This document shows positions 5,351 to 8,698 of a DNA stretch of 12,350 nt, in pieces. A program made the translations under genes and the position numbers. The DNA is from a virus (Duplodnaviria; Heunggongvirae; Uroviricota; Caudoviricetes), in the IMG/VR virus record IMGVR_UViG_2534681699_000012; one strand, written 5' to 3'. Position 1 is the first letter of the stretch, and each line of letters starts with the position of its first letter. Under the pieces are notes generated by a model. The model saw only the letters and a list, made by a program, of their open reading frames with translations. It was not told where the DNA came from and ran no database searches.

Positions 5351-8300
5351 ATGGCAGTAAAGATTTCAGGTGTACTGAAAGACGGCACAGGAAAACCGGT
5401 ACAGAACTGCACAATCCAGCTGAAAGCAAAACGTAACAGCACCACGGTGGTGGTGAACACGCTGGCCTCAGAAAATTCGGATGAAGCCGGGCGTTACAGC
5501 ATGGACGTTGAGTACGGTCAGTACAGCGTTATTCTGTTGGTGGAAGGATTCCCGCCGTCACATGCCGGGACCATCACCGTGTATGAAGATTCCCGACCCG
5601 GTACGCTGAATGATTTTCTCGGTGCCATGACGGAGGATGATGCCCGTCCGGAGGCTCTGCGCCGTTTTGAACTGATGGTGGAAGAGGTGGCGCGTAACGC
5701 GTCCGCGGTGGCACAGAACACGGCAGCCGCGAAGAAGTCAGCCAGTGATGCCGGCACATCTGCCCGTGAGGCGGCAACCCATGCGACTGATGCTGCAGGC
5801 TCAGCGCGTGCAGCCAGCACGTCAGCCGGACAGGCCGCGACTTCGGCTCAGGAGGCGTCTTCCAGCGCAGGAACGGCATCAACAAAGGCCACTGAAGCAT
5901 CAAAAAGTGCTGCCGCTGCAGAGTCCTCAAAAAGCGCGGCGGCCACCAGTGCCGGTGCGGCGAAAACGTCAGAAACGAATGCTGCAGCGTCACAAAAATC
6001 AGCAGCCACTTCTGCATCCACTGCGACGACGAAAGCGTCAGAAGCCGCCACTTCAGCCAGAGATGCGGCGGCCTCCAAAGAGGCGGCAAAATCATCAGAA
6101 ACGAACGCCTCCACAAGCGCCAGCAGTGCAGCCTCCTCGGCAACGGCGGCAGGAAATTCCGTGAAGGCGGCAAAAACGTCCGAGACGAATGCCAGGTCTT
6201 CTGAAACGGCAGCGGAACAGAGCGCCTCAGCTGCGGCAGACTCTGAGACAGCAGCTGCATCATCGGCCCGTGAGGCGTCCATTAAGGCAGAGGAGGCAGC
6301 AGTCAGTGCCACCGCCGCCGGAAAATCGGCAGAAAGCGCCGCATCATCCGCTTCAACAGCCACAACGAAGGCTGGCGAAGCCACTGAACAGGCCACTGCA
6401 GCAGCGAGGGCTGCTTCCGCAGCGAAGACATCCGAAACGAACGCGAAAGCGTCGGAAACCAGCGCAGAATCCTCAAAAACGGCTGCCGCATCGTCCGCCA
6501 GTTCGGCGGCGTCATCGGCATCATCTGCGTCTGCTTCAAAAGATGAGGCGACCAGACAGGCGTCAGCAGCGAAGGGCAGCGCCACGACGGCATCCACGAA
6601 GGCGACAGAGGCAGCTGGTAGTGCGACAGCGGCAGCACAGAGCAAAAGTACGGCAGAATCCGCAGCAACGCGCGCTGAGACAGCGGCAAAACGTGCAGAG
6701 GATATTGCATCCGCCGTGGCGCTTGAGGATGCGAGCACGACGAAAAAGGGGGTAGTACAGCTCAGCAGTGCGACCAACAGCACGTCTGAAACGCTGGCGG
6801 CAACGCCAAAGGCAGTAAAAGCAGCCTATGACAATGCAGAGAAACGTCTGCAGAAAGACCAGAACGGTGCTGATATTCCCGACAAGGACCGCTTCCTGAG
6901 TAACATTAATGTTTACAGCAAAGGTGAAGTGGATCAGAAAAAGGGGATGCGATACGTTGTGGTAAATGCCCCGGCGGGGGTCCAGGAAGGTAAATATTAT
7001 CCGTTAGTGATAAAAAGGAATGACAGCCATCGGGCATCCCGCGTTGTCATTTCAACGCCAAGTCGCTCAGCTAATCACAGAATGAATAATTGTGAGTTTA
7101 ATGGTTTTGTTTGCGCAGGCGGCTGGACGGACCGGGGTAGCTATGCCTGTGGTATGTTCTGGGCTTATTCATCATCGGAACGCGCTATTCATTCCATTCT
7201 GATGAGTAATAAAGGCGATACCGTAGACAGCGTATTCTATATAGAAGGTGGGGCATTTCCCGTAGAGGTCTTTTTAGAAGAAGGTCTCTCCGTTACTGCA
7301 CCTGCTTCTGATTATATTGTTGCTGAAACGACTTATAAATTTGGCGCAACTGATCCTTATTCTGAATCAGTTGCGGTAAATTTAATTTTAGATTTTAAAC
7401 AAGGTAATGGATTTTATAGTTCGTATCCTGTTTTGAGTAAGTCAGACATTAGCGGGAATAAGATTTACGCTAATGATGAAGTTATTGTCCGTAGTCAGAA
7501 CGCGTTAAGGATGATTGCAGGTGATTACGGTGTCATATGGCGAAATGATGGAGCAAATACTTACTTGCTCATGACTGATAAAGGCGACCAGTACGGTGGC
7601 TGGAACGGTCTTCGACCATTTGCAGTAAATAACGCAACAGGTGAAGTGACGATCAATACACCACTTAATTCTCCTAAGGGGATTAAGGGAAATTCTGATA
7701 CAGCTACGAAACTTCAGACAGCAATAAAAATATCTGGTGTTTCGTTTGATGGTTCTACTGATATCACTTTAACCGCTGCGCATGTTGCTGCTTTTGCCAG
7801 AAGAGCAACGGATACGTATGCCGATGCGGATGGGGGCGTTCCCTGGAATGCCGAATCAGGCGCTTACAATGTCACTCGCTCTGGCGACAGCTATATTCTG
7901 GTTAACTTCTATACCGGAGTCGGAAGTTGCCGGACCTTGCAGATGAAGGCGCATTACAGAAATGGTGGTCTGTTCTACCGTTCTTCAAGAGACGGTTATG
8001 GTTTTGAGGATGACTGGGCAGAAGTTTATACCTCGAAAAATCTTCCACCAGAAAGCTACCCAGTCGGCGCACCAATCCCGTGGCCATCAGATACCGTTCC
8101 GTCTGGTTATGCCCTGATGCAGGGGCAGACTTTTGACAAATCTGCTTACCCGAAACTTGCAGCTGCTTATCCGTCAGGCGTGATCCCTGATATGCGTGGC
8201 TGGATGATTAAGGGCAAGCCCGCCAGTGATCGAGCCGTATTGTCTCAGGAACAGGACGGCATTAAATCACACCCCCACAGCGCCAGCGTATCCAGTACGG

Positions 8301-8698
8301 ATTTGGGGACGAAAACCACATCGTCGTTTGATTACGGCACTAAATCCACGAATAACACTGGTGCGCATACCCATAGTGTTAGCGGTACGGCTGCTTCAGC
8401 CGGTGCACATACCCATTCGATGACATTTGTTTCAGGTGGTTCCAGTGGTGCTCCGGGAAGTGGATCACCTGATTATTCTAAATACAGTGTTAACACTTCT
8501 TCTGCAGGCGCTCATACGCACTCTGTATCGGGTACTGCTGCAAGCGCAGGTGCACACGCGCATACTGTCGGTATTGGTGCTCATACGCACTCCGTTGCGA
8601 TTGGTTCACATGGACACACCATCACCGTTAACGCTGCTGGTAACGCGGAAAACACCGTCAAAAACATCGCATTTAACTATATTGTGAGGCTTGCATAA
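5351..8698 (+). CDS. stf: Side tail fibre protein (Stf-like), chimeric: conserved N-terminal anchor, Ala/Ser/Thr-rich shaft, His-rich distal tip domain
   Basis: Long ORF after lom, as for lambda stf. N-terminus [19 protein letters not shown] at 5351 preferred over the in-frame GTG at 5345 used by the ORF track. Long low-complexity shaft, and C-terminal GAHTHS-type repeats typical of phage tail fibre tips. Stop overlaps the tfa start (TAATG). Confidence 0.85.
5700..6730 (+). repeat. Low-complexity Ala/Ser/Thr/Glu/Lys-rich coding repeat region inside stf (fibre shaft)
   Basis: About 340 codons dominated by GCN/TCN/ACN. Recurring peptide motifs such as AKTSETNA and SAAAS, read directly from the translation. 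Generates spurious long ORFs in other frames on both strands. Confidence 0.7.
8340..8640 (+). repeat. His-rich G-A-H-T-H-S tail fibre repeat block at the Stf C-terminus
   Basis: Repeated peptide units [40 protein letters not shown] and [15 protein letters not shown]; the DNA copies are diverged. Resembles the HxH phage tail fibre repeat of lambda Stf and T4 gp37. Confidence 0.6.

What the first reader, a model, noticed from the sequence alone, without database searches (positions are those of the whole stretch)
8230..8640. Histidine-rich GAHTHS repeats at the fibre tip suggest a metal-coordinating distal domain
Several HxH motifs (HTHS, HAHT, HGHT) spaced by Gly/Ala/Ser-rich linkers resemble the tail fibre repeat of T4 gp37, where His pairs coordinate iron ions along a trimeric needle. 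That would predict a metal-stabilised tip in this prophage fibre.
Basis: partly seen in the sequence, partly recalled or inferred. Interest (0 to 1): 0.4.

Follow-up and report, generated by a model that had tools for sequence, protein, structure and literature searches.

The report
Known iron-binding phage tail-fibre needle
The histidine-rich repeats are real and are the well-known metal-binding "needle" that ends phage T4 and lambda tail fibres, here in an E. coli prophage side tail fibre gene, so the finding is correct but ordinary.

Summary
Observation confirmed; interpretation supported by homology; nothing new.

Window 8230-8640 encodes the end of a 1115-aa lambdoid side tail fibre gene (stf, 5351-8698). 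The tail fibre assembly gene tfa follows, in a J-lom-stf-tfa block next to appY/ompT.

The segment holds seven His-x-His (HxH) motifs, four of them GAHTHS. Shuffling the same residues gives a mean of 1.3.

The last 216 residues match the crystal-structure sequence of the T4 gp37 receptor-binding tip (PDB 2XGF; E 7.8e-86, 69% identity). All 14 histidines align one-to-one with the seven T4 HxH motifs, and the stem spacings are identical. In T4 these motifs hold seven iron ions along the trimer axis. The Pfam tail fibre repeat (PF03335) and Collar domain (PF07484) both pass their cut-offs.

One correction: the HxH motifs line the shaft, not the extreme tip. The tip is the histidine-free, hypervariable 26-residue insert between motifs 3 and 4, which probably sets receptor choice.

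Metal binding itself was not tested. The monomer AlphaFold model was poor, and a trimer could not be run.

One small oddity: a private Thr-to-Pro change sits inside HxH motif 1.

The parts
5351..8698 (+). stf, side tail fibre gene (1115 aa from the ATG at 5351; the mechanical ORF starts at a GTG at 5345).
   Evidence: ORF list. Pfam phage_tail_N 5.2e-71, Gp34_trimer 3.6e-30, Collar 8.5e-12. Called as a 1115-aa gene in the source record. PHROG 295 tail fiber, 9e-235.
8066..8209 (+). Collar domain, the equivalent of T4 gp37 knob D10 (first part).
   Evidence: Pfam PF07484 at aa 908-955. Aligned to 2XGF. D10 boundaries from PMC6957217.
8267..8416 (+). Ascending stem of the needle (equivalent to T4 gp37 882-931). 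It carries HxH motifs 1-3 at 8270-8278, 8366-8374 and 8408-8416.
   Evidence: Alignment to T4 gp37 with identical motif spacing of 32 and 14 residues. His invariant in 118-120 of 120 homologues.
8417..8494 (+). Tip subdomain: a His-free, hypervariable insert (equivalent to T4 gp37 932-959) and the presumed receptor-contact surface.
   Evidence: Column entropy 2.5 bits against about 0.3 in the stems. 50 distinct tip sequences among 115 homologues. DNA homology to phages PhiR34_1, lambda and T4 breaks at about 8385-8512. T4 tip function from PMC6957217.
8495..8644 (+). Descending stem of the needle (equivalent to T4 gp37 960-1009). It carries HxH motifs 4-7 at 8513-8521, 8555-8563, 8582-8590 and 8609-8617.
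   Evidence: Alignment to T4 gp37 with identical motif spacing of 14, 9 and 9 residues. Pfam PF03335 repeats.
8645..8695 (+). C-terminal strand ...[15 protein letters not shown], which returns to the collar (equivalent to T4 gp37 1010-1026).
   Evidence: Aligns without gaps to T4 (15 of 17 residues identical) and is identical to lambda over all 17 residues. Nearly invariant in homologues.
8698..9282 (+). tfa, the tail fibre assembly chaperone. Its start overlaps the stf stop codon (TAATG).
   Evidence: Pfam Caudo_TAP 3.8e-44. 93.8% identical to lambda Tfa. PHROG 105.

Best explanation
The interval encodes the needle domain (D11) of a T4 gp37 / lambda Stf-type receptor-binding tip. It sits at the C-terminus of a lambdoid prophage side tail fibre.

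Three chains are expected to run side by side from the collar domain out to the distal end, form a small variable tip there, and run back to the collar. Each of the seven HxH motifs points its two histidines at the threefold axis. Three chains then give six imidazole ligands, which hold one metal ion octahedrally. The result is seven ions in a row (Fe2+ in T4) that rivet the thin trimer together.

The His-free 26-residue insert between motifs 3 and 4 is the actual tip and most likely determines which surface receptor is bound. The downstream Tfa protein is the chaperone needed to fold and trimerise this domain.

Shown here: the motifs, the homology, the conserved register, the invariance of the histidines, the variability of the tip, and the presence of the chaperone gene. 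Inferred: trimer geometry, metal binding, the identity of the metal, the receptor, and whether the prophage still makes the fibre.
For: - 2XGF (T4 gp37 tip) is the top PDB sequence match, E 7.8e-86, covering aa 902-1117.
- Identity to T4 is 68.7% and to lambda Stf 75.1%. All 14 His align to the seven T4 HxH motifs and there are no indels in either stem.
- Pfam Collar PF07484 is found, and the tail fibre repeat PF03335 scores 38.8 bits against a cut-off of 20, with 6 stretches.
- The histidines are conserved in 118-120 of 120 homologue clusters, while the tip is hypervariable.
- DNA homology breaks exactly around the tip.
- tfa follows immediately, with a TAATG overlap, and is 93.8% identical to lambda tfa.
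- The gene order J-lom-stf-tfa is the same as in lambda.
- Literature: seven Fe along the gp37 needle, H929/H931 essential, tip at 932-959 (PMC6957217). Lambda Stf shares the gp37 tip and binds OmpC (PMC12617516). The family has conserved flanks sandwiching a variable specificity insert (PMC9659904).
Against: - No direct structural or metal evidence exists for this protein.
- The AlphaFold2 monomer model is poor (mean pLDDT 49.5). Its Foldseek match to 2xgf_A has TM 0.26 and rmsd 19.5, so it reflects sequence rather than geometry.
- HxH motif 1 carries a private Thr-to-Pro change in the middle position. It is absent from all 120 homologue clusters and from the nearest genomes and could disturb that one site.
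- The contig is from a draft assembly and the prophage may be cryptic. Relatives of this prophage carry frameshifts or IS insertions in tail genes.
Confidence: 0.9

Rival explanations
1. The fold and the axial His cages are the same as in T4, but the bound metal is not iron (for example Zn2+, Ni2+ or Co2+).
For: The metal cannot be read from sequence. The literature retrieved here cites a 'trimeric metal-binding fold' for the T4 short tail fibre gp12 (title of ref. 50 in PMC6957217). From my own knowledge, not checked here, that site is a His-coordinated zinc. The gp12-type short tail fibre matches this protein only over the collar (9cuy, E 7e-8, aa 899-958).
Against: The closest solved homologue (69% identity, every ligand conserved) is reported to hold seven iron ions (PMC6957217; PMC11705849). 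There is no reason to expect a different preference with identical ligand geometry.
Confidence: 0.1
2. The motifs are intact, but the gene is a relic of a cryptic prophage and no fibre is assembled, so the metal-binding needle has no present function in this strain.
For: The locus is the DLP12-type prophage site next to argU/appY/ompT. In related genomes the same prophage has frameshifted tape-measure, K and I genes or an IS1 that truncates stf. Here an IS3 interrupts the neighbouring ompT, and a tfa fragment lies downstream. There is also a private T-to-P change in HxH motif 1.
Against: In this window I, J, lom, stf and tfa are all full-length open frames with their expected domains, and the part of K that lies inside the window is open too. 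The K/I overlap is 103 nt, which from my recollection of the lambda coordinates is the same as in lambda (not checked with a tool). The rest of the prophage lies outside the 12.35-kb contig, so its state is unknown.
Confidence: 0.25
3. The His-rich pattern is low-complexity sequence or a chance pattern with no structural role.
For: The segment is compositionally biased towards S, A, G and T.
Against: Shuffles almost never give seven HxH (5 of 100,000). The histidines are invariant across 120 homologue clusters. The segment has strong homology to a solved structure. Two peptides identical over 17 aa share only 34 of 51 nt, which shows selection on the protein sequence.
Confidence: 0.01

Closest known systems
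Bacteriophage T4 long tail fibre distal subunit gp37, receptor-binding tip (PDB 2XGF; Bartual et al. 2010, PNAS 107:20287).
   Same: It has a collar domain and a needle with seven HxH motifs at identical stem spacing. The C-terminal 17 residues align without gaps, 15 of them identical. Overall identity is 68.7% over 217 aligned residues. A chaperone gene lies immediately downstream.
   Different: The tip insert is unrelated in sequence and 2 residues shorter. The rest of the fibre is lambdoid/Mu-like rather than T4 gp37-like. The chaperone is lambda-type Tfa, not gp38. The x residue of motif 1 is Pro here and Ser in T4.
Ur-lambda side tail fibre Stf (orf-401/orf-314) with Tfa.
   Same: The N-terminal attachment domain (PF08400; 9e7m, E 2.5e-50) and the gene order J-lom-stf-tfa are the same. 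The C-terminal tip is 75.1% identical and Tfa is 93.8% identical.
   Different: Lambda has eight HxH motifs: one extra IGAHxHxV unit, matched by an extra FDYGTK unit on the ascending strand. It also has a longer, unrelated tip. The central rod of this protein is longer (1115 aa) and includes segments like T4 gp34 and Mu S.
The 'T4- and lambda-based receptor binding protein family' of enteric phages and prophages (Magaziner and Salmond 2022, PMC9659904).
   Same: The architecture is exactly the one described: conserved flanks equivalent to gp37 812-931 and 966-1026 sandwich a 30-70 aa specificity insert, with a conserved assembly protein gene beside it.
   Different: None in kind. This is another tip allele. 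The same allele ([29 protein letters not shown]) is the second most common among the 115 homologues examined.

Membership tests
T4 gp37-type receptor-binding tip (collar plus HxH needle; PDB 2XGF) | Significant full-length sequence similarity to the solved gp37 785-1026 fragment. | tested here: met
   phmmer E 7.8e-86 over aa 902-1117 against chain residues 26-242. tblastn to T4 gives 69% identity, E 2e-71.
T4 gp37-type receptor-binding tip (collar plus HxH needle; PDB 2XGF) | Seven HxH motifs in the same register on the ascending and descending stem strands. | tested here: met
   All 14 His align to the T4 motifs. Spacings of 32 and 14, then 14, 9 and 9 residues are identical to T4.
T4 gp37-type receptor-binding tip (collar plus HxH needle; PDB 2XGF) | Collar domain immediately N-terminal to the needle, with the C-terminal strand returning to it. 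| tested here: met
   PF07484 at aa 908-955, E 8.5e-12. The C-terminal 17 residues align without gaps to T4 1010-1026, 15 of 17 identical.
T4 gp37-type receptor-binding tip (collar plus HxH needle; PDB 2XGF) | Variable His-free tip insert between HxH motifs 3 and 4. | tested here: met
   Entropy 2.5 against 0.3 bits. 50 tip alleles among 115 homologues. Break in DNA homology at about 8385-8512.
T4 gp37-type receptor-binding tip (collar plus HxH needle; PDB 2XGF) | Dedicated assembly chaperone encoded directly downstream. | tested here: met
   tfa at 8698-9282, PF02413 at 3.8e-44, 93.8% identical to lambda Tfa.
T4 gp37-type receptor-binding tip (collar plus HxH needle; PDB 2XGF) | Homotrimer in which each HxH triplet coordinates one axial metal ion octahedrally. 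| not testable with these tools
   Only monomer prediction is available, and that model is poor (pLDDT 49.5). Its Foldseek match has TM 0.26. No model coordinates are returned.
T4 gp37-type receptor-binding tip (collar plus HxH needle; PDB 2XGF) | The bound metal is iron. | not testable with these tools
   Needs metal analysis of purified protein. Iron is reported for T4 gp37 (PMC6957217).
Pfam PF03335 Phage_fiber (phage tail fibre repeat) | Score above the Pfam gathering threshold. | tested here: met
   21.1 bits on the full protein and 38.8 bits with 6 stretches on aa 962-1117, against a cut-off of 20.
Pfam PF03406 Phage_fiber_2 | A match to the profile. | tested here: not met
   No hit, even at E up to 10 on the C-terminal fragment. 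A few homologues carry this domain elsewhere in their sequence. It is not needed for the assignment.
Lambdoid side tail fibre (Stf) | N-terminal tail-attachment domain and the J-lom-stf-tfa gene order. | tested here: met
   PF08400 at 5.2e-71. 9e7m tail fiber N-terminus at E 2.5e-50. Gene order as in lambda.

The most novel reading that the evidence does not exclude
The only parts not already explained are small. First, this tip allele (nt 8417-8494) may recognise a receptor different from the OmpC/LPS used by T4 and lambda. Second, the private Thr-to-Pro change (nt 8273) inside HxH motif 1 might be a natural variant that removes or distorts one of the seven metal sites. That would show how many iron rivets the needle can lose. 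Alternatively it may just be a draft-assembly error.
Probability: 0.15. Interest if true: 0.25.

Novelty: already known. Interest (0 to 1): 0.08.

Why it matters
It matters little as a discovery. The gp37-type HxH needle, its iron ions, its presence in lambda Stf and enteric prophages, and its cassette-like variable tip are all published. The same DNA (at least 80% of nt 8000-9300) occurs in 3361 of 5426 complete E. coli genomes.

Its practical value is annotation:
- The interval can be labelled as the D11 needle of a gp37/Stf-type receptor-binding tip.
- The receptor-specificity determinant can be placed at nt 8417-8494.
- Together with tfa, the module is of the kind used for engineering phage host range.

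Tried and rejected
1. AlphaFold2 monomer of aa 900-1117 with a 41-sequence alignment. Mean pLDDT was 49.5 and pTM 0.19. That is too poor to judge His geometry, as expected for an obligate intertwined trimer that depends on a chaperone and metal.

2. Foldseek of that model against the PDB. 2xgf_A was the only significant hit (E 2.8e-10), but with TM 0.26 and rmsd 19.5. The match is driven by sequence and gives no independent structural support.

3. A single-chain 'trimer' of three copies joined by Gly-Ser linkers.

4. Bartual et al. 2010 (PMC2996694) is not in the held library. Its content is cited through PMC6957217 and PMC11705849.

5. Tandem Repeats Finder over stf found no array. The repeats are conserved at the protein level only.

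6. Chance or low-complexity origin of the motifs was rejected by shuffling and by conservation.

7. Relation of the HxH region to the T4 gp12 short tail fibre was considered. Only the collar matches, so it was rejected as the closest relative.
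Full report
**What is at the coordinates**

The interval 8230-8640 lies in one long + strand ORF. The mechanical ORF is 5345-8698, starting at a GTG. The source record calls the gene from the ATG at 5351, giving 1115 aa. Residue numbers below count from the GTG, as; subtract 2 for numbering from the ATG.

The translation of the interval is ...[10 protein letters not shown]...[97 protein letters not shown].

It holds seven HxH motifs:

| Motif | First His (aa) | nt | Sequence |
|---|---|---|---|
| 1 | 976 | 8270-8278 | HPH |
| 2 | 1008 | 8366-8374 | HTH |
| 3 | 1022 | 8408-8416 | HTH |
| 4 | 1057 | 8513-8521 | HTH |
| 5 | 1071 | 8555-8563 | HAH |
| 6 | 1080 | 8582-8590 | HTH |
| 7 | 1089 | 8609-8617 | HGH |

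GAHTHS occurs four times. Fourteen of the protein's 21 histidines are in these motifs.

Shuffling the 138 residues of the interval gives a mean of 1.3 HxH, and only 5 of 100,000 shuffles reach seven. Shuffling the whole protein gives 0 of 20,000. The other five reading frames of the interval are closed.

**Context**

The window is a lambdoid tail-end block:

| Window position | Strand | Feature |
|---|---|---|
| 23-592 | + | K (NlpC/P60) |
| 490-1161 | + | I |
| 1222-4620 | + | J, 1132 aa, all J domains present |
| 4687-5286 | + | lom |
| 5351-8698 | + | stf |
| 8698-9282 | + | tfa; its start overlaps the stf stop as TAATG |
| 9337-10005 | - | SAM-dependent methyltransferase |
| 10062-10247 | + | tfa fragment |
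| 10868-11617 | + | appY |
| 11867-12268 | - | 3' part of ompT |

Annotated E. coli genomes with 97.7-99.8% identical DNA show this to be the DLP12-type prophage position. That position lies between an Arg tRNA gene with integrase intD on one side and appY-ompT-envY on the other.

The window is the entire 12,350-bp contig APXW01000093.1 of draft assembly GCA_000357425.2.

**What the His-rich segment is**

A phmmer search of Stf against all PDB chain sequences puts 2XGF first, at E 7.8e-86 over aa 902-1117. 2XGF is the crystal structure of the T4 long tail fibre receptor-binding tip, gp37 residues 785-1026.

In a three-way alignment the segment is 68.7% identical to T4 gp37 and 75.1% identical to lambda Stf (orf-314). 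Each of its 14 histidines sits in the same column as T4 H883/885, H915/917, H929/931, H966/968, H980/982, H989/991 and H998/1000.

The residue spacing between motifs is identical to T4 in both stems: 32 and 14 on the way out, then 14, 9 and 9 on the way back. The only length difference is 2 residues, inside the loop between motifs 3 and 4.

Pfam finds the Collar domain (PF07484) at aa 908-955. It also finds the 14-residue 'Phage tail fibre repeat' (PF03335) at 21.1 bits on the full protein and 38.8 bits with six stretches on aa 962-1117, against a cut-off of 20.

**How it most likely works**

Islam et al. 2019 (PMC6957217) summarise the gp37 structure as follows:
- The knob D10 is residues 811-881 and 1010-1026.
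- D11 (residues 882-1009) is an insertion into D10.
- D11 is split into a stem (882-931 and 960-1009) and a tip (932-959).
- Seven iron atoms are coordinated along the needle.
- H929 and H931 are iron ligands, and changing either to alanine abolishes plaque formation.

PMC11705849 restates that the seven ions are held by the paired histidines of the HxH motifs, in octahedral coordination.

Transferring these boundaries through the alignment gives the following map:

| Subdomain | aa | nt | HxH motifs |
|---|---|---|---|
| Ascending stem | 975-1024 | 8267-8416 | 1-3 |
| Tip | 1025-1050 | 8417-8494 | none |
| Descending stem | 1051-1100 | 8495-8644 | 4-7 |
| Return strand to collar | 1101-1117 | 8645-8695 | none |

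Each HxH motif would give two imidazoles per chain, six per trimer, to one axial ion. That makes seven ions in a row holding the thin trimer together. This step is inferred from homology, not shown here.

**Correction to 'fibre tip'**

The histidines line the shaft. The distal pole is the His-free insert.

Among 120 homologue clusters from the 5.8-billion-protein collection, the histidines are conserved in 118-120 of 120. Column entropy is about 0.3 bits in collar and stems but 2.5 bits in the tip.

There are 50 different tip sequences among 115 homologues. This window's allele, [29 protein letters not shown], is the second most common.

At the DNA level, similarity to phage PhiR34_1 runs to 8385 and resumes at 8512. 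Lambda and T4 show the same gap.

This is the published picture of a conserved scaffold that carries an exchangeable specificity cassette (PMC9659904). For T4 and Ur-lambda the receptor is OmpC, plus LPS for T4. For this allele the receptor is unknown.

**Selection acts on the protein**

The peptide [17 protein letters not shown] occurs twice, once in the ascending and once in the descending stem. The two DNA copies share only 34 of 51 nt. The DNA repeats are 70-90% alike, and no tandem array is detected. The repeats are therefore old and maintained at the protein level, not a recent duplication.

**Chaperone**

tfa follows directly and is 93.8% identical to lambda tfa. It carries Pfam Caudo_TAP and matches PHROG 105. 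The helper proteins of T4 and lambda fibres are treated together in the literature (Hashemolhosseini et al. 1996, cited in PMC6957217). The proposal to co-express Stf with Tfa is therefore sensible.

**Structure prediction**

An AlphaFold2 monomer model of aa 900-1117 with a 41-sequence alignment was poor, with mean pLDDT 49.5 and pTM 0.19. It does place two long strands (model residues 109-132 and 145-168) on either side of the tip region, which fits an out-and-back topology, but confidence is too low to use.

Foldseek returned 2xgf_A as the only significant hit (E 2.8e-10), but with TM 0.26, so the match reflects sequence rather than geometry. The argument rests on 69% identity with no indels in the stems.

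**How common it is**

| Search | Result |
|---|---|
| nt 8000-9300 against 5426 complete E. coli genomes | found in 5172; at least 80% covered in 3361 |
| Tip protein against phage records | 694 records: T4-like, lambdoid, P2-like, Felixounavirus, even cyanophages for the collar |
| Against clusters at 50% identity | 2004 clusters at E <= 1e-3; 870 at <= 1e-10 |

**An oddity**

The middle residue of HxH motif 1 is Pro (CCC, first base at nt 8273). It is Thr (or, in a few, Ala) in the homologue clusters where the motif could be read, and none of the 120 has Pro. It is Ser in T4, and ACC (Thr) in the two closest complete genomes.

The best cluster representative differs from this protein's last 218 residues by this single change.

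It may be a real private mutation, consistent with relaxed selection in a cryptic prophage. It may instead be an error of a draft assembly in a genome that probably has several near-identical stf copies; E. coli genomes have a median of 2 such places. I could not decide between these.

**Is the fibre still made?**

In this window all tail genes that lie fully within it are open and full length (K runs off the 5' end). Relatives of the same prophage carry frameshifts in the tape-measure, K and I genes or an IS1 in stf. Here an IS3 interrupts ompT next door. The rest of the prophage is outside the contig, so the question stays open.

**Verdict**

The feature is a textbook, already described module, so interest is low.

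Noticed in passing
window 8273 (codon 8273-8275, CCC): A private Thr-to-Pro substitution in the middle position of HxH motif 1 (HPH instead of HTH). It is absent from all 120 homologue clusters and from the two nearest complete genomes. It is either a real variant or a draft-assembly error.
   Followed up: partly
window 12256-12350: Similarity to intact ompT loci stops at 12255. The last 95 nt match an IS3-family element inserted in ompT in strain 510016, so ompT is IS3-disrupted in the source genome. The IS probably explains why the contig ends here.
   Followed up: partly
window 10062-10247 (+): A 61-aa ORF with a weak Caudo_TAP match, annotated in related genomes as a tail fibre assembly pseudogene. 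It lies between the methyltransferase and appY. Related phages (PhiR34_1, 2H10) have a Pin-type invertase right after tfa instead, so this may be the remnant of an alternative or invertible fibre segment.
   Followed up: no
window 9337-10005 (-): A class I SAM-dependent methyltransferase (PHROG 2132, 7.7e-157) sits convergent to tfa at the prophage end, in a typical 'moron' position. Its function is unknown.
   Followed up: no
window about 5670-6680 (Stf aa about 110-445): A stretch of about 330 aa that is 70-78% Ala+Ser+Thr, with no histidine and no DNA tandem repeat. It is presumably the fibre shaft; the Ur-lambda paper describes a six-chain intertwined (coiled-coil) distal part of the side fibre. 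Long antisense ORFs over it (5574-6263, 5848-6783) are probably artefacts of the composition; lambda also annotates an antisense orf206b there.
   Followed up: no
window 5345-8698 (Stf as a whole): The fibre is a mosaic. It combines a lambda Stf N-terminus (aa 3-136), Mu S-like segments (aa 443-523 and 814-908; PDB 5yvq and 8ju3), a T4 gp34 C-terminal trimerisation domain (aa 657-760) and the T4 gp37 tip (aa 902-1117).
   Followed up: partly
L003 (lambda NC_001416) 6030-6974 compared with window 8267-8644: Lambda Stf has eight HxH motifs. The extra IGAHQHPVV unit on the descending strand is matched by an extra SFDYGTKTTG unit on the ascending strand, so needle length seems to change by paired repeat units.
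   Followed up: no
window 1-12350: The window is exactly the whole contig APXW01000093.1 of draft assembly GCA_000357425.2. Both of its ends fall in repeated DNA: the phage K gene at one end and IS3 at the other.
   Followed up: yes
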